The position numbers and the translations under genes were made by a program. Positions 2,477 through 51,897 of a stretch of 64,000 nt of DNA are shown here, piece by piece (within the stretch, counting starts at the first letter, position 1; every line of letters starts with the position of its first letter). A model generated the notes under the pieces. That model was not told the DNA's origin, did no database searches, and was given only the letters and a program-made list of their open reading frames with translations. The stretch lies in IMG/VR virus record IMGVR_UViG_3300045988_174665; one strand, given 5' to 3'. Source of the DNA: a virus.

Positions 2477-3253
2477 TTAGATTTGTGTGTCTTCAGTAGC
2501 TCCTGTTATACTATACTTAACAAGCTTCATCATCTTACCGTCTGATGGACGCATAACACGAAGATTCATATTAAATACTGAGGGGTCTCCTTCAGCCTCA
2601 AGAGTAATTGTGTTCTCTGACTGAACCTTAGCCTTTTGTATTATGAATTGGAAAAATTCATCCTTACCTGTTACTTCAGAACGAGCATAAGTATCTCCTG
2701 TTACATAATAAGTGCCAGGGAAAGAATTAGCTGAAATTTCAATCTCTTGACCATCTACTGCTAATTCAGAAACTAAGAAATAAGTTTCACCGGCTGTTAA
2801 AGTTGTTGAAGCTGTTGAATCTGCGAGAGTTTTCTTAGTACCCTTTTCTACTCCCTTCGCATCATAAACCTTTGCGTCATCCGGAACTGCTACTACCTTT
2901 CCGCCCGGAAGTTCAATATTTGTAGGAACTGTTTTTCCTTTAAAAGTGATTGTTTTAGTGATTTTTGTAGCTGATGAAAGAGTAGAATCACCAAACATAA
3001 TAGCTAAAGATTTAGCAGAGAATAGAGCATCTTCTAGAGTAACTGTAATTTCCTTACCATAGTCCCAAATAATAAGTGGCGGATTACCTTTACCACCTCT
3101 AGCTTCAGCTTCTTCTGCTGTTTGTTCTATTGTTGATACTTTTAAGGTATCTAAATAGAGAACTGCAGCACCACGAGTACCATCGGAATTAATATCATAA
3201 AAAGTTACATCAGCGACTTCTTTGATACCATATCTTTCTAGTATGTTAGCCAT
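2477..3253 (-). CDS. major tail (tube) protein candidate
   Basis: ORF track, 258 aa, GGAGG RBS. Position between connector genes and the tape measure gene. Confidence 0.55.
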   Translation of the reverse strand: MANILERYGIKEVADVTFYDINSDGTRGAAVLYLDTLKVSTIEQTAEEAEARGGKGNPPLIIWDYGKEITVTLEDALFSAKSLAIMFGDSTLSSATKITKTITFKGKTVPTNIELPGGKVVAVPDDAKVYDAKGVEKGTKKTLADSTASTTLTAGETYFLVSELAVDGQEIEISANSFPGTYYVTGDTYARSEVTGKDEFFQFIIQKAKVQSENTITLEAEGDPSVFNMNLRVMRPSDGKMMKLVKYSITGATEDTQI

Positions 3254-37974: not shown

Positions 37975-38901
37975 TTAATGTGCCAATACATCATAAGTAG
38001 AAATTACACTTAAATCTTTATAAATATTATTACCAATAAGGGCTTTGAATTTCTCTTTAGATGTCTGACTTTTTCTTAATCTTAATTCCATATGAAATTG
38101 AATTAAAACTGTTATATATAAATCTCTTTCGAGAATTGTTTTATACATATCGTGATGATAAGGAACTGTCGTTTTATTAACTAAATATGCGTATGCAGAA
38201 ACAAATTGATGGTTATAATAATGAGATATTCCTTTATCATCTTTAGTTTCCGTAAATATCTTTCCAATATCGTGATACTGTAAAACTTCTACAAGAATGT
38301 CTTTTTCATAATTTTCTTTTGCTAAAGTAGCCGCAGTATCCATATGTAATCCGATTGGAAAAGAATGATGTGGATTGTTATGATTGATTGTTCGTGAAAT
38401 ACTTAATAGACTATCTAAATCCTGTGTTGGCAAAAGGTTATTCTTATTTTGAATGATTCTAATATCATCCCAACCTTCATAGTAATAAGGAACAGTAAAA
38501 TGCTGTAGCTGTTTGTAAATTACTTCAGCTGGAACAACAACCTCTCGGGTTGAATCTGCTTTTCTTTTAAAAATTTCCTTTAAAGATGCAATTGCCACTA
38601 CACATATCTTTTTACACGGTATTTTTTCAATACTTTTTAAAAAGTGAACTCGTCTTTTAAAGCTGAGATTTGTTGCATCATAAATAACATTTTTGCCCTC
38701 TTTTAAATCCGCAATAACACGATTTCCTAACTTTGAAAAAATCTTTTGCGGGTTCGCTTGTATATTGGCATCACCATAAAGCTCCTTTCTAATAGCATCA
38801 GAGGAATGAATGACGCCATTATATTTAATTGCAATTTCTTTTGCTAAAGTTGACTTGCCGCTGTAGCTAAGTCCAACCATCATAATAAAATAATTCGTCA
38901 T
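37975..38901 (-). CDS. P-loop polynucleotide-kinase-like / HD phosphohydrolase fusion
   Basis: Walker A GLSYSGKST at the N-terminus; HHSFP...QYHDIGK HD motif in the C-terminal half. Confidence 0.7.
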   Translation of the reverse strand: MTNYFIMMVGLSYSGKSTLAKEIAIKYNGVIHSSDAIRKELYGDANIQANPQKIFSKLGNRVIADLKEGKNVIYDATNLSFKRRVHFLKSIEKIPCKKICVVAIASLKEIFKRKADSTREVVVPAEVIYKQLQHFTVPYYYEGWDDIRIIQNKNNLLPTQDLDSLLSISRTINHNNPHHSFPIGLHMDTAATLAKENYEKDILVEVLQYHDIGKIFTETKDDKGISHYYNHQFVSAYAYLVNKTTVPYHHDMYKTILERDLYITVLIQFHMELRLRKSQTSKEKFKALIGNNIYKDLSVISTYDVLAH

Positions 38902-38915
38902 TTCTCTTTCTCTCC

Positions 38916-39734
38916 TTAACCAAAATAACCACTATAATCTAAGATTACTGGCTGATTAGTTTTAAAATCAAAACCTACATTACCTGCGTGAATATCATTT
39001 ATATGCATCTCATTAATAAAAATGGACAATTCTTCAAAATCCTGCCAATTCAAGCGGTTCTGAAAAAGATTGTCAATTGCAATATTATCCCCAACCTCTC
39101 CTTTTTCAGATGGAGTTGACCAAGAAACCAGTGATGAGGGAGCCTTAGAACAGGGAGTACAAAAAACATAAGAACCTGTACAATATCCCTCTTCACTATC
39201 GTATCTCTGCTCGTGAGCATAATACTTTTCTACCTCTTCAGTGCAAACCCTTACTCTTTCAGAGATATAAAAAGGATAACCATAAAAATATCCTAAAAAA
39301 TAAGTTCCCGCAAAGCATTGCCTTACTTGTGAAAAATCAGCTTCCAGAATTTGAGTTAAGATAGCTTCTTTTTTACAATAATCAATTGCTTCTTTGTAGT
39401 CATCTTTAGTAAGATTATGATAATCTTTATTAAAGTTACTAATCAAATGAGAAGTATATTCCTCATTTGGAATTGTACAATTTCTTTCATCAGTAAAAGG
39501 AACTTTAATTACATAATCTTTACCAAACTGGTATTTTATAATAATAACCCCTTTTGTTGCCCCACTGTCACTTTCATACCAAGCGTTACCAGTTTCATAT
39601 CTTCCGAAAGCTTTCCTTTGCCAGTTATGAAAACTGGTACTTGTGCCATTAAGTATAAAAGTATCAAAAGAATACTTTTTTACCAAGTCTTCAATTACTT
39701 TTTTAAAAAATAAACGAACTTTATTTTCAATCAT
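38916..39734 (-). CDS. hypothetical protein, possible kinase-like fold
   Basis: C-terminal NDIHAGNVGFD...ILDYSG resembles the catalytic-loop/DxG of small-molecule kinases. Confidence 0.35.
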   Translation of the reverse strand: MIENKVRLFFKKVIEDLVKKYSFDTFILNGTSTSFHNWQRKAFGRYETGNAWYESDSGATKGVIIIKYQFGKDYVIKVPFTDERNCTIPNEEYTSHLISNFNKDYHNLTKDDYKEAIDYCKKEAILTQILEADFSQVRQCFAGTYFLGYFYGYPFYISERVRVCTEEVEKYYAHEQRYDSEEGYCTGSYVFCTPCSKAPSSLVSWSTPSEKGEVGDNIAIDNLFQNRLNWQDFEELSIFINEMHINDIHAGNVGFDFKTNQPVILDYSGYFG

Positions 39735-39766
39735 TCTTTTCTCGCCTTTCTTTATTTTCTATATAT

Positions 39767-39795
39767 ATTATATAAAAAATTTTTTAAAAAAACAA
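39767..39795 (-). promoter_or_regulatory. sigma70-type promoter
   Basis: Minus sense TTGTTT-17-TATAAT. Confidence 0.5.
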
Positions 39796-39798
39796 GTT

Positions 39799-40051
39799 TT
39801 AAAAAATTACCTGATATGAAACACCATAATTAATAATTGAACAAGATAAATCAATTTTATTTTTAAAAGCTATCTTAAATACCTGACATATAGAAGGAGG
39901 GAATAAGGAAAACTCTGGTGAATACTGAATATAGACCTTAAAAAATTTCAAAAATTTTCTGCTGTTTTTTAGGAGTGACTTTAAAGCAATCACCACCAAC
40001 CTCTTGTGTGAATATGTTTTTCTTTAAAAAAATATAATCTCCTATCTTCAT
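39799..40051 (-). pseudogene. small gene interrupted by a 1-nt frameshift in a T6 run
   Basis: MKIGDYIFLKKNIFTQEVGGDCFKVTPKKQQKIFEIF | KVYIQYSPEF...YQVIF. The frames join at plus-strand A6 39940-39945. ATGA overlap with the upstream gene. Confidence 0.4.
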
Positions 40052-40920
40052 TTTAATGCTCCTTTCTCCTTCATTTCTGTTAATCTTACTGCTACTTCTA
40101 CAGTTATAGTATCAAAATACTCAAGAAAAATCTGTTGCAAAAGTCCTGATGCGTTTTTTTCTGACCATTTTTTATCTGTGTCTAAAGTATAGGTTTTATC
40201 GTCTTCAAATAATTCTATCGAAGGAATCTCATAAAATTTTTCTGGCGACAAATCTTCTTTAAATATATTGATTAAATTATTAACATTAGAAAAAGTGATT
40301 GCTTTATATTCTTCTGCATTATATTTATATTCAAGAATCATGCGAGAAGAAAAACCAGAAAAATTTGTGTACATTTCTGAAATTGAGACACCGTCGAAAA
40401 TTGCAAATAACCAATTAATATGGTAAAAAACTCTATACCACTTTTGTTTGCAACGAGAACAACTAGTTATCATTCCCATCACTTGACGATAAAGAACAGA
40501 ATAATTTTGAAAAAATACCTGATTAACTTTTGATTTAAGCTGTTCGTAAAATTCTTTATATAATGGATTAACTCTTATTGTGCTACTTAGAATTGGTTCA
40601 AAATAGGTAAAATTTCCTTTAAAGAAACTTGTAATAAACTTTCTGATATCAACAGTCTTAATCTTTCCATTATTTACTACAAGCTCATGGCAATCAATCT
40701 GTTTGTTTAGACAAAATTCTTCATAGGTTGGAAAAATGACCGCCACAGCATCATAATCACTTAGATTTGTTGCTAATTCATAATTTTGACTGCCAATTAA
40801 AGATATAAAGAAAATTTCTCTGCCACCGTCGCTTAAAATTTTTTCATAACCCCTTAATATTGCATCTACTTTATCTGCATAGTCCTTATTTAACAGACTT
40901 ACCCTATCGTATCTATACAT
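40048..40920 (-). CDS. Pol-beta-superfamily nucleotidyltransferase (RNA-repair-associated type)
   Basis: LIGSQNYELATNLSDYD matches the GS..Y(G/E)....SD.D motif. Confidence 0.6.
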   Translation of the reverse strand: MYRYDRVSLLNKDYADKVDAILRGYEKILSDGGREIFFISLIGSQNYELATNLSDYDAVAVIFPTYEEFCLNKQIDCHELVVNNGKIKTVDIRKFITSFFKGNFTYFEPILSSTIRVNPLYKEFYEQLKSKVNQVFFQNYSVLYRQVMGMITSCSRCKQKWYRVFYHINWLFAIFDGVSISEMYTNFSGFSSRMILEYKYNAEEYKAITFSNVNNLINIFKEDLSPEKFYEIPSIELFEDDKTYTLDTDKKWSEKNASGLLQQIFLEYFDTITVEVAVRLTEMKEKGALK

Positions 40921-40949
40921 TTTTTCGCCCCTTTTTATTTTCTATATAT

Positions 40950-40978
40950 ATTATATAAAAAATTTTTTAAAAAAGCAA
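40950..40978 (-). promoter_or_regulatory. sigma70-type promoter
   Basis: Minus sense TTGCTT-17-TATAAT. Confidence 0.55.
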
Positions 40979-40979
40979 A

Positions 40980-41001
40980 AAAAGAGAGGTTAACCTCTCT
41001 T
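40980..41001. terminator. hairpin terminator
   Basis: AAAGAGAGG-TTAA-CCTCTCTTT. Confidence 0.55.
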
Positions 41002-42194
41002 TAATCGTGATGCTTAAGCAGATATTCTCTCGAAACATTTTTAAAGCTAAAATCAGTCTTTGGATTTCTCAATACAATTCCCTCTCTATATACAGAAGGA
41101 TTAACAACCGACTTCGCAGTCGCAACTTTCTTAAATTCGTCCAAATCTTTAGGAAGCTTATAATGAGCATCGAGAATTGGGACAAATTTCATTCCCATTT
41201 CATTTACCACCAATTGTGCCTCAGTAGAAGGTACTCTACCTCTGTCTGAACGAATAAAATTAAAGATGTATAAATCATCTTCTTTGAGCTTCAAAGGATT
41301 ACCTTGAACGCTGCCTACAGATTCGCCTTGAACACAAACATAATCAAGCTCAGGATTCTGTTTTAAATATGTTTCAAGTTGCTCTCTAATATGGTATTTA
41401 AAAGCCATATCCCAATAAATGTTATGGTCGTGATAGCAATTTTGTTTCTCATCTTTCTGTCTTATATTTCGAGAAAGAACATAAAATTCAAACTTATTTC
41501 TTCTCTTCTTTTTTCTTTCAAGAATATAAGTTGAAGAAGTACCGTCCAACTTCTCAGTTACAATCCAATCATCCTCATTATTAAGAATAAAGGGAATGTT
41601 CTCAACTCTCTCTTCGTCGGTTTTATGAATATAAGGGAAGTGAGTTGGAAAAGCCTTTGGACTATCTTTCTTTTTGCCCAAAAAGACAAAGAGAAGTTTT
41701 CTACCCCACTCCCTCTTCATAAGCCAACGGAATGGCTTCTTTTTCATAATATTTTTATGTCTTGCCGCCATTGACATATATTTAATATCTTTAGCTTTGT
41801 TAGCCTTACGAATATTATCATCTTGAGAAATATAAGTTACTCCAAGCTTCTGTCCAACATCAGAATGAAGTGGTAAATCTTTAAATTCTGGAAAAGCAGA
41901 CAGCGGCATTAGAAGTCCTTGTGAAATAACTTTACACATTCTTTGAGTCTTTACTTTAAAATTACGCTTTGCCATAAAAGTAAATCTCTCATCGTTGTCA
42001 GGAACTTTTGAGTCAATTTCAAAGTAAATACCTTTCTTTTTAGTTTCGTCATTAGGGTCAAAGTCGCCCTTTCCTACTACGCAATGCCAGCCACCAACAG
42101 TTGCTAATTCAACCCTATCGTAACCTTCCAATGGAGTGACCTTATCAACCTCTACAATATAAGCTAACATTCTCTCGCCTTTTTCGTTTAACAT
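41001..42194 (-). CDS. ATP-dependent RNA ligase (DRB0094-like)
   Basis: N-terminal OB-like AYIVEVDKVTPLEGYDRVELATVGGWHCVV; adenylyltransferase motif I TEKLDGTS. Confidence 0.8.
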   Translation of the reverse strand: MLNEKGERMLAYIVEVDKVTPLEGYDRVELATVGGWHCVVGKGDFDPNDETKKKGIYFEIDSKVPDNDERFTFMAKRNFKVKTQRMCKVISQGLLMPLSAFPEFKDLPLHSDVGQKLGVTYISQDDNIRKANKAKDIKYMSMAARHKNIMKKKPFRWLMKREWGRKLLFVFLGKKKDSPKAFPTHFPYIHKTDEERVENIPFILNNEDDWIVTEKLDGTSSTYILERKKKRRNKFEFYVLSRNIRQKDEKQNCYHDHNIYWDMAFKYHIREQLETYLKQNPELDYVCVQGESVGSVQGNPLKLKEDDLYIFNFIRSDRGRVPSTEAQLVVNEMGMKFVPILDAHYKLPKDLDEFKKVATAKSVVNPSVYREGIVLRNPKTDFSFKNVSREYLLKHHD

Positions 42195-42460
42195 TATACA
42201 TCATCCTTCCATTTTTTCGTTCTCATTTCAATAATATAATCTATTACTTTTTCATATTCTGTTTCTGTTAAAGAAAGTAGTGGCACGACTGTCTTATCAA
42301 AATTTGAAAAACCCGCCATTTTCATAAAGTCATTAACAAATTCTCCGATTACCCTATAGGTATCAATTCCCAATTCGGGGTATGTATCTCTTGATACTCT
42401 ACTCACTGTTTTAGAACCAATCTCATTGGTATTTTCATAGCTCATTTTTAACTTAATCAT
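42194..42460 (-). CDS. hypothetical protein
   Basis: ORF track. Confidence 0.45.
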   Translation of the reverse strand: MIKLKMSYENTNEIGSKTVSRVSRDTYPELGIDTYRVIGEFVNDFMKMAGFSNFDKTVVPLLSLTETEYEKVIDYIIEMRTKKWKDDV

Positions 42461-42698
42461 TTTTATAATCCTCCAACTTAACGAGTTTTAAAACTCGATA
42501 GACCTCGGGAGGTACAAAACCAAGTTTTTGCAAATCTTCATCCTTTTCTATTTGGTGGTATACAGAAATTCCATCTTCAAGAAAAACAATACTATCTCCT
42601 ACAATAAGTTCTGACCAATTAACAGCGTCACTTAATTCAAATAACTGACCGTCAATTTTTAAAACTATATTATCAAACTTTATTGGTCTGGTTATCAT
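42453..42698 (-). CDS. hypothetical protein
   Basis: Start moved to MITRPIK because the ORF-track N-terminus overlaps the promoter. Confidence 0.45.
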   Translation of the reverse strand: MITRPIKFDNIVLKIDGQLFELSDAVNWSELIVGDSIVFLEDGISVYHQIEKDEDLQKLGFVPPEVYRVLKLVKLEDYKND

Positions 42699-42729
42699 TT
42701 TAAAACTCCTTTTCTTATTTTCTATAAAT

Positions 42730-42758
42730 ATTATATAGAATTTTTTTAAAAAAAGCAA
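42730..42758 (-). promoter_or_regulatory. sigma70-type promoter
   Basis: Minus sense TTGCTT-17-TATAAT. Confidence 0.55.
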
Positions 42759-42759
42759 A

Positions 42760-44412
42760 TTATAAATATTGTTTAATTAACTCAGAAAAGTTTCTTAAAA
42801 AATGAATCGAAATGGTGTCTTTTTGTAGGGCCGCTGTTCGCTGTATATCCCAAGCATTTTTAATGCCTGCCTGAGATTGCTGCGTTGGATAAAGTATTTC
42901 TGGAGTTGTAATAGTAACTCGAACCAATTTAGATAAATTTTTTTCTTTTGTATAATCTGTAATTGCCCGATAAATTAAATATAAGAAAAAGGACAAGGGA
43001 ATTAATATACCGTTCAAGTTCATAATGTGAATAGCATTTGTGGTTGTTTCTTTAAAATCTCCAATAGAAGAGGCATCGTCAAATAATAAATATGCCACAT
43101 CCTGAGCTAATAAACGGCTTAAATCTTCTTTATAATTTTCTTGATTACCAATTGCCCCTTTTCCTAATTGTAAAATTGCTCCAACCACATAAACAAAATT
43201 TTTATCTATATTAGAGAAAATTTCTTTAAAAGAATCCATTTTAATAGCTGTGCCGGCGGAGTAACCTCTCTTAGAAAAGTTTTCATTTAAGGTATATAAT
43301 TTAGAAGAACTATAAACAATAAAGCCATTATTAATTTTATCTAATCTCTGTCTTAAAATTTCAAATGCTCTATTATTATCCACATAATTACCTAAAGAGT
43401 TTTCTTTTGTAATTTTTTCTATAGCGTCTTTATCTATACCATAAGTATAAATATTATCCGCTTTAATCTTTTTCTCTCCAGAACCAATTCCTTCAATTTT
43501 GTATCCTTGATTTTTATTGTTTTGTAACATAAAGATGAAGTTTTCCAAAAATTCTTGTTCTAAACCGCCTTGACCAGCCGCTGTCTGCATAGCAACTTTG
43601 TTCTTTCTAGTGTTACCCAAAATCGCCTGTTTACAACTCATTAAGCTAACTCCTCTTTTACTTTTACTTTCTTTAATTCTCTTTTTAATTGAATTTTTAA
43701 TTTTATCAACTTGATACACTTGGCACATATTCCGCACGAAGGGGTTGGTGGCAGCCTTGCCTCTATATTTTTCTAAAGCTTCTACAACTTCGGCATAAGC
43801 GTTAGAATAATCTTTCCCAGTTTTATTTAATCCATTTTCTTGATTAGCACTGAATTGTAAAATTAAAGCTTCTTGTACAATTTCTGGCATTACCTCGTCA
43901 ATTACATTTTCAATTGCTGAATTAATTTTTACTCCTTTTTTAATTTGACTAATAATTTTTCGAGAAATTTTTCCCTCATATTTATCCCAAACCTTACCAA
44001 AATAAGTGCCAAAAAAGGCAGTAACTGTTTTTTGTCCCTTGGTATTCTTTATTAAGGCTACATTTCTTTCATAAACTTTTTTTAAGTTCATCGTTTCATT
44101 AAGAAGCTCAATTATTTTCTTTGCTCCATCTGCGGAGGCTGTCGAATCTTTTACTCCCCTTCCTACATTAATACCATAAACTTTTCTTAAAAGGGCTTTT
44201 TCTTTCTTTTCTTCATTTTGAGCTAGTCTTAATAATTGCTTGGCAGCGGTGACGTCTTCTGAACCCAGAGCATTTCTGAATTTACCACCGTCCCTCAAAT
44301 TTCTTTTAATTGTATCGTAAGTTTTTCTATAAGTCGGTCCACTGTCTTTTAATCTTTCGTAAAAAACATACATACTAGACAAAGAGCGACTTTGTATGTC
44401 TAAAGCTGGCAT
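42760..44412 (-). CDS. large hypothetical protein
   Basis: ORF track, 550 aa, GGAGG RBS; no motif recognised. Confidence 0.55.
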   Translation of the reverse strand: MPALDIQSRSLSSMYVFYERLKDSGPTYRKTYDTIKRNLRDGGKFRNALGSEDVTAAKQLLRLAQNEEKKEKALLRKVYGINVGRGVKDSTASADGAKKIIELLNETMNLKKVYERNVALIKNTKGQKTVTAFFGTYFGKVWDKYEGKISRKIISQIKKGVKINSAIENVIDEVMPEIVQEALILQFSANQENGLNKTGKDYSNAYAEVVEALEKYRGKAATNPFVRNMCQVYQVDKIKNSIKKRIKESKSKRGVSLMSCKQAILGNTRKNKVAMQTAAGQGGLEQEFLENFIFMLQNNKNQGYKIEGIGSGEKKIKADNIYTYGIDKDAIEKITKENSLGNYVDNNRAFEILRQRLDKINNGFIVYSSSKLYTLNENFSKRGYSAGTAIKMDSFKEIFSNIDKNFVYVVGAILQLGKGAIGNQENYKEDLSRLLAQDVAYLLFDDASSIGDFKETTTNAIHIMNLNGILIPLSFFLYLIYRAITDYTKEKNLSKLVRVTITTPEILYPTQQSQAGIKNAWDIQRTAALQKDTISIHFLRNFSELIKQYL

Positions 44413-44423
44413 AATTCCTCCTA

Positions 44424-44450
44424 TAAAAAAAGAGCGTTATTCACGCTCTT
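44424..44450 (-). terminator. intrinsic terminator
   Basis: AAGAGCG-loop-CGCTCTT hairpin followed by T7 in the minus sense. Confidence 0.6.
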
Positions 44451-44481
44451 ATGTATATAAAACAGCCTCTATTGAAGCCGA

Positions 44482-45243
44482 TTAGGACAATTGTACAACC
44501 TCGTCCAGTAATAAAGTCATATTGGAAGTTAATGGTTGGTTTGCGTGGAAATGCCCACAATACCAATGTGTGAAAGTAATTTTATCATAAACCTCTTCTA
44601 AAAATTCTTCCATAGAAGTATCCGCTTCTCCATAATTAAAAGGAAGAAATAATTCTGTGGGTTCATATTTAAGTGGACAAGTATGACTAAAAATATAATC
44701 ATATGAGTTATTTTTTGAAATAATTTCAAAAATTTCCTTTTTCTTCTCTTCATCCATTTGTTCATCGGGATACCAATATCCCCTTTTATGAACTACTCTC
44801 CAATATTTATCAATTGAATACGCCCCACCAAGTACAAGACACTTTTTCCCTAAAATTGTAATTACTCCATCATCAGGGAATAAAATATTAGAATACTTTT
44901 TTTCTACCCAACAATTACATTTTAAATCTCCTCTACATTGAATTTTTTGATAAGAAGGAATATGCTCGGGGCGGCAATCGTGATTACCTTGAATACAAAT
45001 TAAAGTAATTGGTAAATTACTAATTTTTTGCTTAATCTTTTCTCTATAAGACTTACTTTTATCTATAAGAGGCTCTCCCCATTTTAAACCAGTATTCATT
45101 TCATCATAAATATATCCATAATTGATTCCAGTATCACCCAAAAGAATTAAATAATCTTCTTTAGTGGTATTATTTTCCCTGCAAAATTGAGGTAAAAAGC
45201 CAAACTGACCGTGAGTATCCCCTCTTACAAAAATTCTTCCCAT
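44482..45243 (-). CDS. Ser/Thr-phosphatase-type metallophosphoesterase
   Basis: GDTHGQ, LGDTG, GNHD and GHFH motifs. Start moved to MGRIFVRGD because the ORF-track N-terminus overlaps tRNA-Gln. Confidence 0.8.
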   Translation of the reverse strand: MGRIFVRGDTHGQFGFLPQFCRENNTTKEDYLILLGDTGINYGYIYDEMNTGLKWGEPLIDKSKSYREKIKQKISNLPITLICIQGNHDCRPEHIPSYQKIQCRGDLKCNCWVEKKYSNILFPDDGVITILGKKCLVLGGAYSIDKYWRVVHKRGYWYPDEQMDEEKKKEIFEIISKNNSYDYIFSHTCPLKYEPTELFLPFNYGEADTSMEEFLEEVYDKITFTHWYCGHFHANQPLTSNMTLLLDEVVQLS

Positions 45244-45261
45244 TCCTTTCTCCTCTCTTAT

Positions 45262-45285
45262 ATACAAAAATCCCTTATAAAGGGA
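45262..45285 (-). terminator. terminator at the end of the tRNA island
   Basis: TCCCTT-TAT-AAGGGA hairpin followed by T5 in the minus sense. Confidence 0.5.
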
Positions 45286-45288
45286 ACT

Positions 45289-45363
45289 TGGCAGCGGAGA
45301 AGAGAATCGAACTCCTACCCGTTGGGTCAAAGCCAACTGTACTAACCGTTATACTACTCCGCT
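45289..45363 (-). tRNA. tRNA-Gln(TTG)
   Basis: Full cloverleaf, anticodon loop CTTTGAC, GGAGTTCGATTCTC T-arm, encoded CCA. Confidence 0.85.
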
Positions 45364-45999
45364 ATATTTAATTTAATAACTTATTTTAGCCATATAAAGA
45401 CCTTCGCCTTACTTTGATTTAGTTTTCTTCTATATTCAGCCACTAAGAAAACATACTTGAGCCTTGGGGAGCTACCCCAAAACGATATGCCCTATACCTC
45501 TTTAGAGGCAACTAAGCTTAGAAGGGAATGATTACCCTTAACTTTCACCCACCATCCAAAAAATATAATATCTTTTTAACATAAAAGGTATTTTCATCAT
45601 TGTTTTTCTATTTACGGTATTGAGCTACTCGCACATTAAACTTGCCTTATAGTTAAGTTACCTTAACATCACTACCACACCCCTTATTTGAGTTACTAAG
45701 GTTTGCTAATTTCTCAGGTTAGCCTAACTTAGCTTATTCTTTCACTGAAAGCGTCTATTACGGAGCGGACAAGAATTTGCCTTTAAAAGCAACTAATCAA
45801 GCACATCTTTCCCACCAAGAAGACCCGTCTTTTATCTCCGCCCTTATTAGGTCACCCTAATAAGTTCTCGTTGATTTAAAGTATCCTTAAAATCCTTACT
45901 AATTGGAATTATTGGAAAGATTCTCGGCACGATGGCATTCGTCTTCACCGAGGTTTATATGATTAAAATAAACTATTAAATTTTCAAGGTACAATTAAA
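45364..45999 (-). ncRNA. 636-nt ORF-free structured spacer (candidate large ncRNA)
   Basis: No ORF in either strand. Many local helices: TTGGGG/CCCCAA, CTTATTAG/CTAATAAG, AAGGG/CCCTT, CTCGG/CCGAG, GTTAAG/CTTAAC. Visibly richer in G+C than the flanking DNA. Confidence 0.35.
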
Positions 46000-47113: not shown

Positions 47114-47252
47114 AAATTTAATAAGAATGACACTCTTTGCTTGTATATTCGCAATGACCATCTCATTCTTATCTTTAAATTACTTAAAACCAGAGGGTGA
47201 CAATCCTCATTTCCATAAAGGCGATAGATGCCCGTTCTATCCTTGGTTTTAA

Positions 47253-48822: not shown

Positions 48823-48950
48823 ATGGCTAGAGTGGTTGGACTCGAACCAACTTATATTCGGAAATTTAAAGTTCTTATAATATAGATTAAAAGTCTATTC
48901 CTAATGGGTAGAAGGATGAACCTCAACAGCCGAATATTTATTTAACTTAC
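48823..48950 (-). ncRNA. signature hairpin RNA unit A (followed by an orphan T-arm and ..GCCA tail)
   Basis: P1 ATATTCGG/CCGAATAT, GGCU, UUCAUCCUUCUA, then GTTGG-TTCGAGT-CCAAC-CACTCTAGCCA. Own promoter upstream. Confidence 0.5.
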
Positions 48951-48957
48951 ATTAAAT

Positions 48958-48986
48958 ATTATAGCATATATTTTATTATTTGTCAA
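48958..48986 (-). promoter_or_regulatory. internal promoter for unit A
   Basis: Minus sense TTGACA-17-TATAAT with an extended TGC. Confidence 0.6.
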
Positions 48987-49014
48987 ATATTTTTTATTAT
49001 TTAAAATTTGTTCG

Positions 49015-49148
49015 ATGCGGTAATTTTAACATCTACATAATACTATTGCACTACCAACTGTGCTACATCCCGCTTTAATGGGATGGTGGGAATCGAACCC
49101 ACATCACATAGTCCCCTGATATAGAAGGATGATGTTAGTCAGCCGCAT
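49015..49148 (-). ncRNA. signature hairpin RNA unit B carrying a permuted tRNA-like domain (YrlA-like architecture)
   Basis: P1 ATGCGG/CCGCAT and P2 TAACATC/GATGTTA, with GGCU and AUCAUCCUUCUA. The inner module at 49042-49112 has a T-arm, a capped 6-bp acceptor helix, U8-A9 and a D-arm with GG, closed by ACTAT/ATAGT. Confidence 0.6.
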
Positions 49149-49197
49149 ATTTTTTATATTGTGGAAATTTGTTTCTCTAAAATCTTAATCCCAAATC

Positions 49198-49240
49198 AAG
49201 TGCTTGTTAGCGTAGAAGGATGAAAAACAATAGCCACTTT
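49198..49240 (-). ncRNA. signature hairpin RNA unit C
   Basis: AAGTG/CACTT and UGUU/AACA helices; loop UUUCAUCCUUCUACGCU. Confidence 0.45.
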
Positions 49241-49250
49241 GAGAAAGAGA

Positions 49251-49313
49251 TGTGGGAATTTAATGCTCTTTTAAAACCGTTTATTATATAGAAGGATGAG
49301 CATTACAGCCACA
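49251..49313 (-). ncRNA. signature hairpin RNA unit D
   Basis: P1 TGTGG/CCACA, P2 TAATGCTC/GAGCATTA; the loop starts AUCCUUCUA. Confidence 0.5.
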
Positions 49314-49324
49314 AATTATAAATA

Positions 49325-49418
49325 GTGGAAATCGGACTTTCTATCTTATTATTATGGAGGTGGCTAAACCACCGAAATTCTTTTTTTTTCTTAGAAGGAA
49401 GAAAGTCCATAGCCACAA
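49325..49418 (-). ncRNA. signature hairpin RNA unit E
   Basis: P1 GTGG/CCAC, P2 GGACTTTCT/AGAAAGTCC, variant UUCCUUCUA, inner hairpin GGTGG-TTTAG-CCACC. Confidence 0.5.
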
Positions 49419-49440
49419 TAACTTCATTTTATTTCACAAA

Positions 49441-51720
49441 TTATAACAAAGCAAATAGTTCATCGGTATCAAAAGCTGTGACAATCGGAACTTCTGGCTT
49501 TTCCTTTATAACGGGTTTTGTGGTACCCGTAACCTCGTCAAACTCTTTTGCAATTTCATAAGGTACTGTTGTATCATTACTAAAAATGATATCCGCTTCA
49601 TTTCTATTTGTAACAATACTACCTCTTGCAATAGCGTTCATCATTACAAGGTCATAAATATTTGCCTTATTAAGATGTGTTAAACCATAGCAGGTTGCAG
49701 TTACACCCTGTAAATTACTTTCAAGATTATTGCCATAAAACCTCGGACTTCCATTCTGAAGGTTCATATCACACCAGATGAACTTACGCTCAACACAATC
49801 AAATATAACAGGTATAGCAACAGTACTATCAGCAGTTAAGTCAATCTTCATTTCAACTGTTTTCGGCTCGAATATCTCACCGCTATTTACATCTTCTCTT
49901 TCCATCCATCCGAAACGGCAATTGGGAAGCGTAGAAAAATGCTGTCGTGTAAAACTATAAACCTGAAATGCAATGTATCTACCAGCGTTTTTAGCAACTG
50001 CATCAATGTCCACATCAATAAACTCTGCTACACCATCACCGTTAATATTTCCGCCATTGGTAATGTCACCCGAATGATATGCTCTATATTTTGCAGAGCG
50101 AAGTTGTGTATATGATACACGGTCAACATACTGCCAATTTTCGTCATAAATGGTTGCAGAAAGGTCAATATCAACCCTGTCTTCACCCCAACCATTTCTC
50201 GCCTTATCGGTATTAGTCCACCAGATAAAACCACGAACAGCTGTAGCGTCTTTCTTAATGGGCAACTTACTACCACGAACAATGGTCTTAACAGCCTTAC
50301 TTGCACTTCTCTGACTAAACGGAACAAGATAATTTTTGAAATCCTCATCAATATAAACTTTTCCGAGGAAATCTTTTTCCTTATACTGTTCAATTAAAGC
50401 ATCACGGCAAATCGTTGCAATATTGTTACATACATTGCTATTGATTTTAGGAAGTTCATTTTTGATAACCATAGCTTTTGCAAGATTTCCCTTAGGAAAG
50501 AATACTCTTACAGGCTGATTATCATTCTCCATTCTTCCTATAAAATGCTGTCTTACCTGAAGAAGTACAGGAGTTGAAATTTTTGTTGCAACTTCTTTAA
50601 AACAGTTGACAATATAATTCGGATTATCTGCATCACGAATAAGTTTATCAAGTTGTCTTGCAAACTCTCCCGGTCTTGCCTTTAACAAGGTAGCGGCTTC
50701 ACGCATATCTTTTGCGGTAATTGCTGCCTGAACCTTTCCCGCAAACATAAGAGGCTTTTTCTCATTTCTTAAAGTATTAAATGCAGCGTTAACATTATGA
50801 TACTTTGCTTTTTTATATTCAAACGGATGAAGAATTTCTGCTACTCTAATCCATTCATACTGATAACGGAACAAATCCTCTGTTATATTACTACAACCAG
50901 CAAGCAAATCCATAATCATACGGCGTTCAACCCTACGAAGGTTTCTGTATTTAGTCCTTGAAGCAAGACTAATGTCGCCATTAGAAAGTGCTGTTACAAG
51001 TCGTAAAACATCTGTTGTAGTCTTGAAATATTTACTTATTGAATCAGCACTTTTGATTGGTGCTTTTTCAATAATAAGCTTTCCAATAAATGCAACATTC
51101 TCTTTAAGAGGAATTGTATTAGGAAGATATGTAGTATAATCGGGACAAGCAAGAATAATAGCTTCAATGTCCTCTTTATCCTGCTCCGAAATTGATGTCT
51201 TACTCTCAACAAGATTTGTGAAAATAGTCATCAAATCATCGTGACTTCCCATTGACAAAACAGTCATTTTATTGTCATCAATAAGTGGGAAACGCTCATC
51301 TTTTTCGTATTCGGGAATTAATGTACCAAATGACCAGTAATGAACGATTGCATTAACAAACAACTCGATATCACTTGCTTCTGCAACCTGCTGCGGGAAG
51401 TTCGGATACATTGGATTATATGTAACATCCGCACCAACAAGTTCTTTAAGTGCAGGAATAAGGGAACTATAAAAAGCAATAAAATTATCTCTTGTAAGAT
51501 GGAATACTTTTTCAAGAAGTTCCCTTGAAAATGTAAAGCCAAGAGCCTGAATATTTTTCAAGCCAGAAATAACAAGTGCCTTTTCTGCCTTATCCTGCTC
51601 ATAAGTCATATCGGCACTGCCAAAGTTAATCGTTACGAAATTGGCGGCAGGTTCAAACATTACCAAATGCTTACGGCGTAACAAAATCTTATCAAGTTCT
51701 GTTAATTTGAAATTCTTCAT
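49441..51720 (-). CDS. 759-aa protein: helical N-terminal domain (possible distant TROVE/Ro60-like) plus C-terminal TerD-like domain
   Basis: The C-terminus reads ...DIDLSATIYDENW..VSY......YRAYHSGDITNGG..GDGVAEFIDVDIDAV....RYIAFQVYSF, matching the TerD pattern (DLD...hSGDn.tG.gdgDdE.i.vdL). N-terminal strings INFGSADMTY, TKYRNLRRVERRMIMDLL...ILHP and FARQLDKLIR are colinear with TROVE landmarks as I recall them. Confidence 0.6.
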   Translation of the reverse strand: MKNFKLTELDKILLRRKHLVMFEPAANFVTINFGSADMTYEQDKAEKALVISGLKNIQALGFTFSRELLEKVFHLTRDNFIAFYSSLIPALKELVGADVTYNPMYPNFPQQVAEASDIELFVNAIVHYWSFGTLIPEYEKDERFPLIDDNKMTVLSMGSHDDLMTIFTNLVESKTSISEQDKEDIEAIILACPDYTTYLPNTIPLKENVAFIGKLIIEKAPIKSADSISKYFKTTTDVLRLVTALSNGDISLASRTKYRNLRRVERRMIMDLLAGCSNITEDLFRYQYEWIRVAEILHPFEYKKAKYHNVNAAFNTLRNEKKPLMFAGKVQAAITAKDMREAATLLKARPGEFARQLDKLIRDADNPNYIVNCFKEVATKISTPVLLQVRQHFIGRMENDNQPVRVFFPKGNLAKAMVIKNELPKINSNVCNNIATICRDALIEQYKEKDFLGKVYIDEDFKNYLVPFSQRSASKAVKTIVRGSKLPIKKDATAVRGFIWWTNTDKARNGWGEDRVDIDLSATIYDENWQYVDRVSYTQLRSAKYRAYHSGDITNGGNINGDGVAEFIDVDIDAVAKNAGRYIAFQVYSFTRQHFSTLPNCRFGWMEREDVNSGEIFEPKTVEMKIDLTADSTVAIPVIFDCVERKFIWCDMNLQNGSPRFYGNNLESNLQGVTATCYGLTHLNKANIYDLVMMNAIARGSIVTNRNEADIIFSNDTTVPYEIAKEFDEVTGTTKPVIKEKPEVPIVTAFDTDELFALL

Positions 51721-51748
51721 TATAATTAATCTCCTTTATTTTAATTTG

Positions 51749-51820
51749 TCGGTAATAATTGAAACTATTTTTAAGACTTAAATTTTCTTTTTATAGAAGG
51801 AAGTTTCAATATAGCCGTTA
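51749..51820 (-). ncRNA. signature hairpin RNA unit F (in the 5' leader of the 759-aa ORF)
   Basis: GGCU, P2 ATTGAAACT/AGTTTCAAT, variant CUUCCUUCUA. Ends about 12 nt before the ORF's RBS. Confidence 0.45.
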
Positions 51821-51897
51821 GGAAAAATTGATGGGAATTTTACACTCTATTCTTATAGCAAAAAGTTTTAGAAGGATGAATATTTTCAGCCACCAAC
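51821..51897 (-). ncRNA. signature hairpin RNA unit G
   Basis: TTGGTGG/CCATCAA pairing, GGCU, UUCAUCCUUCUA. Confidence 0.45.

What the first reader, a model, noticed from the sequence alone, without database searches (positions are those of the whole stretch)
48823..51897. Seven covarying hairpin RNAs with a GGCU...UCAUCCUUCUA signature flank a 759-aa ORF: candidate phage Ro60/Y-RNA-like RNP
What the sequence shows:
- The plus strand carries TAGAAGGATGA, or the variant AGAAGGAAG(A), at 48909, 49122, 49213, 49289, 49392, 51794 and 51869.
- Each copy is followed 7-10 nt later by AGCC.
- Read in the minus sense (the sense of the tRNAs and the ORF) this is YGGCU-N7-10-(U)CAUCCUUCUA.
- Five units lie just downstream of ORF 49441..51720. 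Two lie just upstream, and one of those is in its 5' leader.

Stems that enclose the signature:
- Unit D: TGTGG/CCACA plus TAATGCTC/GAGCATTA.
- Unit E: GTGG/CCAC plus GGACTTTCT/AGAAAGTCC.
- Unit F: ATTGAAACT/AGTTTCAAT.
- Unit B: ATGCGG/CCGCAT plus TAACATC/GATGTTA.
- Unit A: ATATTCGG/CCGAATAT.

The stem sequences differ completely between units while pairing is kept, and the single-stranded signature stays constant. That is the hallmark of a structured RNA family rather than a coding or promoter repeat.

Established knowledge: bacterial Y RNAs are stem-based RNAs encoded in one or several copies next to the Ro60 ortholog. The YrlA type carries a tRNA-like module, and unit B does exactly that.

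Inference: these are Y-RNA-like partners of the adjacent protein. Alternatively, the pyrimidine loop CCUUCU resembles the 16S anti-SD tail, so the units could act as SD-sequestering sRNAs.
Basis: partly seen in the sequence, partly recalled or inferred. Interest (0 to 1): 0.9.

Follow-up and report, generated by a model that had tools for sequence, protein, structure and literature searches.

The report
New partner RNAs of TerD-family protein
The seven repeats are real, strongly covarying small structured RNAs that are encoded next to one uncharacterised TerD-domain protein in many bacteria and phages. This looks like a previously unlisted RNA-protein pair that resembles the Ro60/Y-RNA system but does not belong to it.

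Summary
Seven units sit on the minus strand at the stated positions, against 0 expected by chance. Each unit is built as P1(..GG)-CUR-P2(5-10 bp)-(C)WUCCUUCUA-variable insert-P2'-AUUY-CC..P1'.

The helices covary strongly. On a structure-blind alignment 83% of cells pair, against 34-50% when partners are slid. Across 88 bacterial copies 96% pair.

The RNA is not specific to this phage. A model built from the phage units finds 1-6 copies in nearly all of 80 bacterial loci that encode a homologue of the 759-aa ORF. All 137 matches at E<0.01 lie on the gene's strand, upstream or downstream. A protein-blind scan of viral contigs recovers the protein in 84 of 118 stretches, and some copies lie 10-140 kb from the gene.

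Units with long inserts, including unit B, carry a permuted tRNA-like module. It matches Rfam YrlA below threshold (29-51 bits; gathering score 69).

The protein is not demonstrably Ro60: there is no TROVE/vWA hit, hhalign probability is 0.5%, and no solved Ro60 appears in the listed fold matches. It combines a helical N-terminal domain with a TerD-like domain.

Best reading: Y-RNA-like partner RNAs of a TerD-family protein, with a possible role in autoregulation. No Rfam 15 family matches the units.

The parts
51828..51896 (-). Unit G (69 nt). P1 UUGGUGG/CCAUCAA, weak P2 UAUUC/GAAUA, loop CAUCCUUCUA. Its orthologue in L001 carries a ~100-nt tRNA-like insert.
   Evidence: (46 bits, E 2e-8); L001 3785-3894 matches YrlA with 34.6 bits.
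51750..51817 (-). Unit F (68 nt), in the 5' leader of the ORF. P1 CGG/CCG, P2 AUUGAAACU/AGUUUCAAU, loop UUCCUUCUA (the bacterial-type signature). It ends 29 nt before the ATG; the AAGGAG Shine-Dalgarno sequence lies between.
   Evidence: (60.7 bits).
49441..51720 (-). 759-aa TerD-family protein: a mostly helical N-terminal region (~1-450), a TerD-like beta domain (~480-660) and a small C-terminal alpha/beta region. Proposed protein partner of the RNAs.
   Evidence: PHROG 33734; NF041916 408 bits, below its cutoff of 600; sources name close homologues 'TerD family protein'; AF2 pLDDT 93.4, pTM 0.92; Pfam TerD in 16 of 63 relatives; BFVD matches to standalone TerD proteins.
49325..49416 (-). Unit E (92 nt), starting 25 nt after the stop codon. 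P1 GUGG/CCAC, P2 UGGACUUUCU/AGAAAGUCCG, loop UUCCUUCUA. The insert contains a GC-rich hairpin GGUGG..CCACC.
   Evidence: (68.1 bits).
49251..49313 (-). Unit D (63 nt, the minimal form). P1 UGUGG/CCACA, P2 UAAUGCUC/GAGCAUUA.
   Evidence: (57 bits).
49161..49237 (-). Unit C (77 nt). P1 GUGG/CCAC, P2 UUGUUUUUC/GAGAAACAA.
   Evidence: (70.7 bits).
49015..49148 (-). Unit B (134 nt). P1 AUGCGG/CCGCAU, P2 UAACAUC/GAUGUUA, with an 87-nt tRNA-like insert.
   Evidence: the R1 model covers only the 5' part (23 bits) because of the long insert.
49047..49102 (-). Permuted tRNA-like module inside unit B. T arm at 49086-49102 (GUGGG-UUCGAUU-CCCAC), closed acceptor-like hairpin at 49066-49085, D arm at 49047-49065 with a GG in its loop.
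   Evidence: Rfam YrlA RF02553 positions 23-85, 37 bits, E 8.9e-6, gathering score 69; coordinates.
48854..48937 (-). Unit A (84 nt). P1 AUAUUCGG/CCGAAUAU, P2 UUGAGGUUC/GAACUUUAA.
   Evidence: z -2.9; 70.6 bits.
48958..48986 (-). Consensus sigma-70 promoter, TTGACA-17 nt-TATAAT, about 20 nt upstream of unit A. It is conserved in related phage L001. Its presence suggests units can be transcribed independently of the ORF.
   Evidence: Read directly from the sequence.
48824..48851 (-). Orphan tRNA 3' half (T arm, 3' acceptor strand, GCCA) between unit A and tRNA-Ser. It is probably the remnant of an eighth, tRNA-like unit that is intact in L001 (6861-~7007).

Best explanation
The seven units are genes for small, stable, trans-acting structured RNAs (63-134 nt). 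They are the dedicated RNA partners of the adjacent TerD-family protein.

Proposed protein-recognition element (inferred):
- the terminal stem P1;
- the asymmetric internal loop, 5' GG-CUR opposite 3' AUUY-CC;
- helix P2, closed by an invariant C-G pair;
- the single-stranded WUCCUUCUA at the 5' side of the apical loop.

The rest of the apical loop is a free module. It is short in most units. In some it is a YrlA-like tRNA mimic that could recruit or decoy tRNA-handling factors (inferred). This is the same logic as Ro60 and its Y RNAs.

A unit often sits right in front of the start codon, so binding probably also feeds back on the protein's own expression (inferred).

In this phage the pair has been expanded to 7-8 paralogous RNAs inside a tRNA/ROOL/skipping-rope island, next to RNA heal-and-seal genes. 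This suggests a role in RNA or tRNA damage conflicts during infection (speculative).

What is shown: the RNA structure, its conservation, its genetic linkage to the protein, and the tRNA-like module. What is inferred: physical binding, and the function.
For: 1. Structure.
- Covariation on a structure-blind alignment.
- Covariation on 88 bacterial copies: 96.1% of cells paired against 41-55% with slid partners; score 0.815 against about 0.15.

2. Linkage.
- All 10 viral relatives (51-91% protein identity) keep 1-2 units upstream and 1-6 downstream.
- Model R1, built only from phage units, gives 137 matches at E<0.01 in 80 bacterial loci. All are on the gene's strand. The hosts include Paenibacillus, Brevibacillus, Priestia, Niallia, Chloroflexaceae, Armatimonadota, Pyrinomonadaceae and cyanobacteria.
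- A regex scan of 706 kb finds only 2 matches on the opposite strand.
- A protein-blind DNA pattern scan of viral contigs gives 118 stretches. 81 encode a homologue on the motif's strand, down to about 23% identity, and 3 more are found by HMM.

3. Trans action rather than cis action.
- The units are downstream-only in Niallia, Heyndrickxia and Lachnospiraceae, starting about 3 nt after the stop codon.
- Verified copies lie 10-140 kb from the protein gene in large phage contigs.
- Unit A has its own consensus promoter.

4. Modularity.
- YrlA-type modules sit in the long-insert units of L001, L003, L004, L006, L010, L012, L015, L016, L021 and L022.

5. Protein.
- The family is large and conserved: 2862 representatives at 50% clustering.
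- The AF2 model is confident.
- Many Arg positions are invariant or nearly invariant.

6. Context.
- RNA ligase, an RlaP-like nucleotidyltransferase, a metallophosphoesterase and a PNK-like gene lie on the same strand at 37975-45336.
Against: - No experiment or structure shows that the protein binds RNA. No known RNA-binding domain is detected in it.
- In most bacterial loci the units sit 5' of the gene, sometimes abutting the ATG or followed by a terminator-like hairpin. A purely cis-regulatory leader would look the same there.
- TerD domains are usually discussed as Ca2+- or ligand-binding stress proteins, not as RNP components (PMC7824862, PMC7159879).
- The RNA-repair neighbourhood was not found to be conserved in the short stretches held for other phages.
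- All matches to YrlA are below Rfam's gathering score.
Confidence: 0.6

Rival explanations
1. The units are a cis-regulatory leader, either protein-autoregulatory or a riboswitch. On this view they control transcription termination or translation initiation of the TerD-family gene, and the extra phage copies are duplications with no trans role.
For: - 75 of 90 loci have at least one unit upstream of the gene.
- In L051, L056, L057, L071 and L083 the last unit ends 2-14 nt before a start codon that lacks a Shine-Dalgarno sequence.
- In Bacillus and Priestia loci a terminator-like hairpin lies between the unit and the gene.
- Tandem aptamers are known for riboswitches (established knowledge).
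Against: - The arrangement is downstream-only in L015-L024, L043 and L085.
- This window has five units 3' of the ORF.
- Copies lie tens of kb away in jumbo-phage contigs.
- Unit A has its own promoter.
- The apical loop is mostly unconserved and tolerates 16-100-nt inserts, including tRNA mimics. That is atypical for a ligand pocket.

Autoregulation can coexist with the RNP model. As the sole function it fails.
Confidence: 0.2
2. The units are anti-Shine-Dalgarno or 16S-tail mimic sRNAs. The pyrimidine loop (C)WUCCUUCUA would pair with purine-rich ribosome-binding sites, or mimic the 16S 3' end, to sequester mRNAs or a factor that binds the 16S tail.
For: - 5'-CUUCCUU-3' can pair with AAGGAGG through one G-U pair (seen directly in the sequence).
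- The motif resembles the Firmicute 16S 3' end ...CACCUCCUUUCUA (recalled from memory, not tested).
- The motif is single-stranded in the predicted folds.
Against: - The CCUCC core is never present.
- The exact complement GAAGGA precedes only 1 of 54 ORFs in the window, while GGAGG/AGGAG dominate.
- The idea does not explain the invariant GG-CUAU/CUUU-CC internal loop, nor the strict linkage to one protein family across phyla whose anti-SD sequences are identical anyway.
Confidence: 0.08
3. The repeats act at the DNA level or are selfish. They would be repeated promoters or operators, recombination sites, a MITE-like mobile repeat, or tRNA-derived spacers that serve only as processing signals in the tRNA array.
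For: The units are tandemly packed inside a tRNA array. One neighbouring fragment (48824-48851) is a tRNA remnant.
Against: - Helix sequences differ completely between copies while pairing is kept, with G-U pairs allowed. That is selection at the RNA level.
- Orientation is strictly relative to one gene.
- The units occur as single copies in bacterial chromosomes with no tRNA array.
- No terminal inverted repeats or target duplications were noted.
Confidence: 0.03

Closest known systems
Bacterial Ro60 (Rsr) with Y RNAs YrlA/YrlB (Rfam RF02553; Chen et al. 2014, PMC4201824)
   Same: - One to several small RNAs are encoded on the same strand within a few kb of the protein gene.
- The 5' and 3' ends pair into a stem that carries a conserved asymmetric loop.
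- A variable apical module is present.
- There is a short form and a form with a circularly permuted tRNA-like module (T arm, closed acceptor-like hairpin, D arm) at the same topological position.
- Both occur in bacteria and in phages with tRNA clusters, near RNA-repair genes.
   Different: - The protein has no detectable TROVE or vWA domain and carries a TerD-like domain instead.
- The Ro60-binding motif GNCGAAN0-1G is replaced by GG-CUAU ... CUUCCUUCUA ... UAG ... CUUU-CC.
- All units score below the YrlA gathering threshold, and only through the tRNA-like part.
- Up to 8 copies occur per locus.
TerD domain proteins of tellurite-resistance (ter) systems (Pfam PF02342; PDB 2kxt)
   Same: - The beta domain at about 480-660 carries TerD-like conserved Asp/Gly motifs (D517, D519, S550-G551-D552, E566, D569).
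- Pfam TerD is matched in 16 of 63 relatives.
- Standalone phage TerD models align with target-normalised TM 0.53-0.76.
   Different: - Canonical TerD proteins are about 190-aa single-domain proteins in ter operons with TerB/C/Y, and no RNA partner is known for them.
- This family adds a ~450-aa helical N-terminal region.
- It is a standalone gene flanked by structured RNAs.
NCBIfam NF041916, MXAN_6230/SCO0854 family RING domain-containing protein
   Same: Clear homology over residues 325-708, which align to profile positions 388-762 (408 bits in total).
   Different: The score is below the equivalog cutoff of 600. The N-terminal RING-bearing part of that profile is not matched. No publication on that family was found.
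Protein-associated orphan RNA motifs of phage ncRNA islands (skipping-rope, drum, DUF3800-I; Weinberg et al. 2017, PMC5737381)
   Same: They are structured RNAs of unknown function with a compelling association to one neighbouring protein family. They are found in phage and prophage regions rich in tRNAs; skipping-rope and ROOL lie in this same island.
   Different: The sequence and structure are different. No Rfam 15 family matches the units. Here the orientation is strictly the same strand as the protein gene.

Membership tests
YrlA / bacterial Y RNA (Rfam RF02553) | Score at or above the Rfam gathering threshold (69 bits). | tested here: not met
   Unit B scores 37 bits. The best related unit scores 51 bits (L006). 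The other six window units give no match at E<=10.
YrlA / bacterial Y RNA (Rfam RF02553) | tRNA-like module: T arm, closed acceptor-like stem and D arm in permuted order. | tested here: met
   Met for unit B only. Model positions 23-85 align with a UUCGA T loop and a GG D loop. The same is seen in long-insert units of 10 other loci.
YrlA / bacterial Y RNA (Rfam RF02553) | Conserved 5' motif GNCGAAN0-1G, the likely Ro60 contact (PMC4201824). | tested here: not met
   The units have GG-CUR/CUAU instead. The stem part of the YrlA model does not align.
YrlA / bacterial Y RNA (Rfam RF02553) | Encoded within about 4 kb of, and on the same strand as, a TROVE-domain Ro60 orthologue. | tested here: not met
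   A TROVE profile HMM against all window ORFs finds nothing at E<=10. The weak tblastn hits to ORF 42760-44412 were dismissed by profile-profile comparison, probability 0.05%.
Ro60 / TROVE protein | Pfam TROVE (PF05731) and vWA_Ro60 (PF25045) domains. | tested here: not met
   No hit in the ORF at E<=0.1 or in 63 family members at E<=0.01. As a positive control, human Ro60 gives E 3e-50 and 1e-76.
Ro60 / TROVE protein | Detectable sequence-profile homology to Ro60. | tested here: not met
   hhalign of the family profile A1 against 66 Ro60 sequences (A7): probability 0.5%, E 0.11. Against the 7-sequence profile: probability 0.6%.
Ro60 / TROVE protein | Ring of HEAT-like repeats closed by a second domain (fold similarity). 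| tested here: inconclusive
   PDB Foldseek with the full model and with the N-terminal model gives no match at E<0.001 and no Ro60 in the 50 matches listed. Only generic alpha-solenoids appear, with TM<0.22. BFVD gives one predicted phage 'TROVE domain-containing protein' at E 1.9e-4, TM 0.26/0.34.
TerD domain (PF02342) | TerD beta-sandwich with acidic Ca2+-binding motifs. | tested here: met
   Pfam TerD in 16 of 63 relatives, best E 2.8e-7. PDB 2kxt at E 0.05 with the profile. BFVD standalone TerD matches at E 1e-7 to 6e-5. The window protein alone does not reach a Pfam hit.
NF041916 MXAN_6230/SCO0854 RING family (equivalog) | Whole-protein score of at least 600 bits, including the N-terminal RING region. 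| tested here: not met
   408 bits. The best-matching stretch covers profile positions 388-762 of 842.
Riboswitch / 5'-UTR cis-regulator | Located consistently in the 5' UTR of the regulated gene. | tested here: not met
   Downstream-only loci, five 3' copies in this window, and distant copies in large phage contigs.

The most novel reading that the evidence does not exclude
This would be a second Y-RNA-type ribonucleoprotein system that is independent of Ro60, or derived from TROVE beyond recognition. In it, a widespread TerD-domain protein uses dedicated modular RNAs, including tRNA mimics. The system would be conserved from Bacillota to Chloroflexota, Armatimonadota, cyanobacteria and many large phages. 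Phages would have amplified it inside tRNA and RNA-repair islands to act on damaged or targeted tRNA or rRNA during infection. It would also be the first RNA-linked function for a TerD-family domain.
Probability: 0.45. Interest if true: 0.85.

Novelty: new variant of a known kind. Interest (0 to 1): 0.8.

Why it matters
If the RNAs do bind this protein, three things follow.

1. A large protein family of unknown function gets a concrete molecular partner and an easy experimental handle. The family has more than 2800 clusters at 50% identity and is present in tractable Bacillus, Priestia, Paenibacillus and Brevibacillus strains.
2. A new, broadly distributed structured RNA class can be added to RNA family catalogues. 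Its consensus is GG-CUAU...CUUCCUUCUA...UAG...CUUU-CC.
3. The tRNA-mimicking Y-RNA design would be shown not to be exclusive to Ro60. That bears on the open question of what the tRNA-like module of YrlA is for. It also bears on why phages pack tRNA islands with orphan structured RNAs such as ROOL and skipping-rope next to RNA-repair enzymes.

Tried and rejected
- Rfam 15, at gathering and at E<=10, on the window and on 19 loci. No family covers the units; only sub-threshold YrlA, tmRNA and tRNA-like pieces appear.
- My first fixed-spacing motif search gave 0 hits because the spacing was wrong. It was repeated with a variable gap.
- A crude 'own versus other downstream region' helix test discriminated poorly in AT-rich sequence: mean helix 8.2 against 6.5. 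It was replaced by column-wise pair counts.
- Ro60 homology of the 759-aa protein was tested by Pfam, PDB sequence profile, hhalign against two Ro60 profiles, and PDB Foldseek with the full and N-terminal models. All were negative. One BFVD TROVE match at E 1.9e-4 is left as inconclusive.
- A possible hidden Ro60 in the window: tblastn of 66 Ro60 proteins weakly hit ORF 42760-44412 (best E 5e-4). Its 48-member family profile shows no similarity to Ro60 (probability 0.05%), to any Pfam family or to any PDB sequence. Rejected as chance.
- Conserved linkage of the pair to the RNA-repair genes: not seen in the short stretches held for other phages, so it is left as a local observation.
- Literature searches for SCO0854/MXAN_6230, TerD with RNA motif, tRNA-like or RING, and new Y-RNA classes found no prior description. 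Subscription journals are not covered, so prior description cannot be excluded.
- Additional domains in longer family members: only ankyrin repeats in one protein.

Full report
**Setting.** The finding lies in a minus-strand tRNA/ncRNA island of what is evidently a large phage genome.
- There are 16 tRNA genes between 45289 and 53090.
- A ROOL RNA lies at 45379-45976 (301 bits) and a skipping-rope RNA at 47185-47251.
- The only long ORF in the island is 49441-51720(-), 759 aa.
- Close relatives of this ORF (90-98% identity) lie on IMG/VR and metagenome contigs of 100-150 kb.

**Observation.**
- The signature AGAAGGAWG-N6-10-AGCC occurs seven times. All copies are on the + strand and all lie in 48910-51891. 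Shuffles give 0.00 expected.
- Read on the minus strand, each unit is P1(..GG)-CUR-P2-(C)WUCCUUCUA-insert-P2'-AUUY-CC..P1'.
Unit limits are G 51828-51896, F 51750-51817, E 49325-49416, D 49251-49313, C 49161-49237, B 49015-49148 and A 48854-48937.
- Single-sequence folds recover P1 and P2 for A, B, C, D, E and F, but not for G, whose P2 is weak.

**Is it a structured RNA?**
- Ten viral loci encode relatives of the ORF at 51-91% identity. All carry the same signature on the protein's strand, with 1-2 units upstream and 1-6 downstream. The helix sequences are quite different but still pair.
- A MAFFT alignment of 24 short units, not fitted to any structure, aligned cleanly at both ends.
- For the structure I specified on it, 83.3% of cells pair, against 34-50% when the 3' partners are slid by 1-3 columns. 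The covariation score is 0.68 against 0.12-0.20. None of 500 shuffles reaches it. In P2, 9 of 10 pairs change on both sides.
- This is selection at the RNA level. It excludes a coding repeat, a promoter repeat or a DNA site.

**Reach of the family.**
- The ORF belongs to a large family. 2862 representatives at 50% clustering match at E<=1e-3, and most are about 700 aa.
- A scan of one genome per species returned 80 loci. They come from Paenibacillus, Brevibacillus, Priestia, Niallia, Heyndrickxia, Clostridia, Chloroflexaceae, Armatimonadota, Pyrinomonadaceae, cyanobacteria and others.
- Covariance model R1 was built only from phage units. It finds exactly the seven units in the window. In the bacterial loci it gives 137 matches at E<0.01, every one on the gene's strand and next to the gene.
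- The bacterial consensus is P1..aGG-CUAU-P2-CU|UCCUUCUa...uAG-P2'-cUUU-CC..P1'.
- On 88 bacterial copies 96.1% of cells pair, against 41-55% with slid partners. This alignment was fitted to the model, so it leans toward the structure; even so, the covariation score is 0.815 against about 0.15.
- Conversely, a protein-blind scan of viral contigs for GGCTAT-N7-9-CTTCCTTCTA gave 118 stretches. Of these, 81 encode a homologue by tblastn, always on the motif's strand and down to about 23% identity. Three more were found by HMM at stretch edges.
- Of the remaining 34 stretches, 16 hold model-verified units. Several of those are on contigs whose protein gene lies 10-140 kb away: L106/L127 versus L140, L154/L203 versus L125, L175 versus L120, and L099 versus L158.
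- No Rfam 15 family matches the units in the window or in the bacterial loci.

**Cis or trans?**
- Most bacterial loci have one or two units 5' of the gene. In some the last unit ends 2-14 nt before a start codon with no Shine-Dalgarno sequence. In Bacillus and Priestia a terminator-like hairpin follows the unit. A regulatory effect on the gene itself is therefore plausible.
- However, in Niallia, Heyndrickxia, Lachnospiraceae and others the units are only 3' of the gene, starting about 3 nt after the stop codon.
- This phage has five units 3' of the ORF.
- Unit A has its own consensus promoter, TTGACA-17-TATAAT at 48958-48986, conserved in L001.
- Large phages disperse copies far from the gene.
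- The feature common to all arrangements is presence in the same genome as the protein gene, usually beside it on the same strand. This is what a partner RNA would show.

**The tRNA-like module.**
- Unit B's 87-nt insert matches positions 23-85 of Rfam YrlA with 37 bits and E 8.9e-6, against a gathering score of 69. The order is T arm, closed acceptor-like hairpin, D arm, which is the permuted order typical of YrlA.
- Comparable matches (29-51 bits) recur in the long-insert units of L001, L003, L004, L006, L010, L012, L015, L016, L021 and L022.
- Only the tRNA-like part aligns. The YrlA stem, with the GNCGAAN0-1G motif thought to contact Ro60 (PMC4201824), does not.

**The protein.**
- Pfam finds nothing in the window protein. 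PHROG 33734 has unknown function. NCBIfam NF041916 matches over residues 325-708 with 408 bits, below its cutoff of 600. Sources name close homologues 'TerD family protein'.
- AF2 with a 125-sequence alignment gives a confident model, pLDDT 93.4 and pTM 0.92. It has a mainly helical region at 1-450, a beta domain at about 480-660 and a small C-terminal alpha/beta part.
- TerD is supported by Pfam hits in 16 of 63 relatives, by PDB 2kxt at E 0.05 and by BFVD TerD models.
- Ro60 membership was tested directly and failed. No TROVE or vWA appears in 63 members. hhalign against Ro60 profiles gives probability 0.5-0.6%; those profiles were built from a verified human Ro60, six phage Ro-like proteins and 59 database Ro60s. 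PDB Foldseek with the full and N-terminal models finds only generic alpha-solenoids at E>0.02.
- One BFVD match to a predicted phage TROVE protein (E 1.9e-4, TM 0.26/0.34) keeps a very distant relationship open.
- There is no other Ro60 in the window.

**Interpretation.**
- The best-supported model (confidence about 0.6) is a Y-RNA-like RNP. The conserved stem, internal loop and pyrimidine tract would form the protein-binding platform. The apical insert would be an exchangeable module, a tRNA mimic in some paralogues. Leader-positioned units would probably add autoregulation.
- The nearby RNA ligase, RlaP-like nucleotidyltransferase, metallophosphoesterase and PNK-like genes parallel the Ro60-RtcB context. 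They hint at a role in RNA damage conflicts. This linkage was not shown to be conserved and is speculative.
- Rival readings are less likely. A pure cis-regulator gets 0.2; it fails on the 3' and distant copies. An anti-SD or 16S-tail mimic gets 0.08; there is no CCUCC, and GAAGGA precedes only 1 of 54 ORFs. A DNA-level or selfish repeat gets 0.03; it is refuted by the covariation.

**Novelty.** I found no Rfam family and no paper that describes this RNA or links this protein family to RNA. The searchable library omits most subscription journals. I rate it a new variant of a known kind: Ro60/Y-RNA-type logic with a different protein and a different recognition element.

Noticed in passing
window 37975-45336 (-): An RNA heal-and-seal gene set lies on the same strand, directly 3' of the tRNA/ncRNA island. 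It comprises a PNK-like gene (37975-38901), an RlaP-like nucleotidyltransferase (40048-40920), an RNA ligase with PHA02142 OB domain (41001-42194), an orphan 550-aa protein (42760-44412; a 56-member family with no Pfam, PHROG or PDB match) and a calcineurin-like phosphoesterase (44482-45336).
   Followed up: partly
window 45379-45976 (-) and 47185-47251 (-): A full-length ROOL RNA (301.6 bits) and a skipping-rope RNA (44.3 bits) are embedded among the tRNAs of the same island. The phage therefore carries at least three classes of orphan structured RNA side by side.
   Followed up: no
window 48824-48851 (-); L001 6861-~7007: An orphan tRNA 3' half (T arm GUUGG-UUCGAGU-CCAAC, 3' acceptor strand, GCCA) sits between unit A and tRNA-Ser. 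At this position the related phage L001 has an intact eighth unit with a tRNA-like insert, so the window probably carries a deletion remnant.
   Followed up: partly
window 48958-48986 (-); L001 6724-6752: A perfect sigma-70 consensus promoter (TTGACA, 17 nt, TATAAT) lies inside the RNA array just upstream of unit A. It is conserved in the related phage.
   Followed up: partly
L051, L056, L057, L071, L083 (bacterial loci), about 2900-3010: The homologous protein genes start 2-14 nt after the 3' end of the last RNA unit and have no recognisable Shine-Dalgarno sequence. This suggests either unusual initiation or processing that leaves a near-leaderless mRNA.
   Followed up: no
L045/L046 2920-2990, L026 2820-2880, L053 2875-2905: In Bacillaceae a hairpin followed by a U run lies between the unit and the gene. 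In L045/L046 its stem (AUCAGG/CCUGAU) repeats the unit's own P1 sequence, which would allow alternative pairing of the anti-terminator type.
   Followed up: no
L056, L058-L061, L065, L066 at about 1030-1190 (Brevibacillus): An extra unit lies about 1.8 kb upstream of the gene, after a glutamate-synthase-domain ORF and separated from the gene by opposite-strand ORFs. It is an example of a detached copy in a bacterial chromosome.
   Followed up: partly
L010 1463-1862: A related phage carries a full tmRNA gene (76.9 bits, E 4e-28) in the same tRNA island.
   Followed up: no
window 49392-49399 and 51794-51801 versus the other five units: Units E and F, which directly flank the ORF, carry the bacterial-type loop CUUCCUUCUA. 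Units A-D and G carry (U)CAUCCUUCUA. The same split is seen in the closest related phages (L001, L002, L007).
   Followed up: partly
protein residues 431-481 (window about 50278-50430): Both hhalign runs against Ro60 that used the full family profile picked the same short segment. NNIATICRDALIEQYKEKDFLGKVYI...VPFSQRSASKA aligned to the Ro60 TROVE-to-vWA junction (ALDxAFYxxFxxVEPTGKR...PLTPRxASAA). This is not significant (probability 0.3-0.5%), but it recurred.
   Followed up: partly
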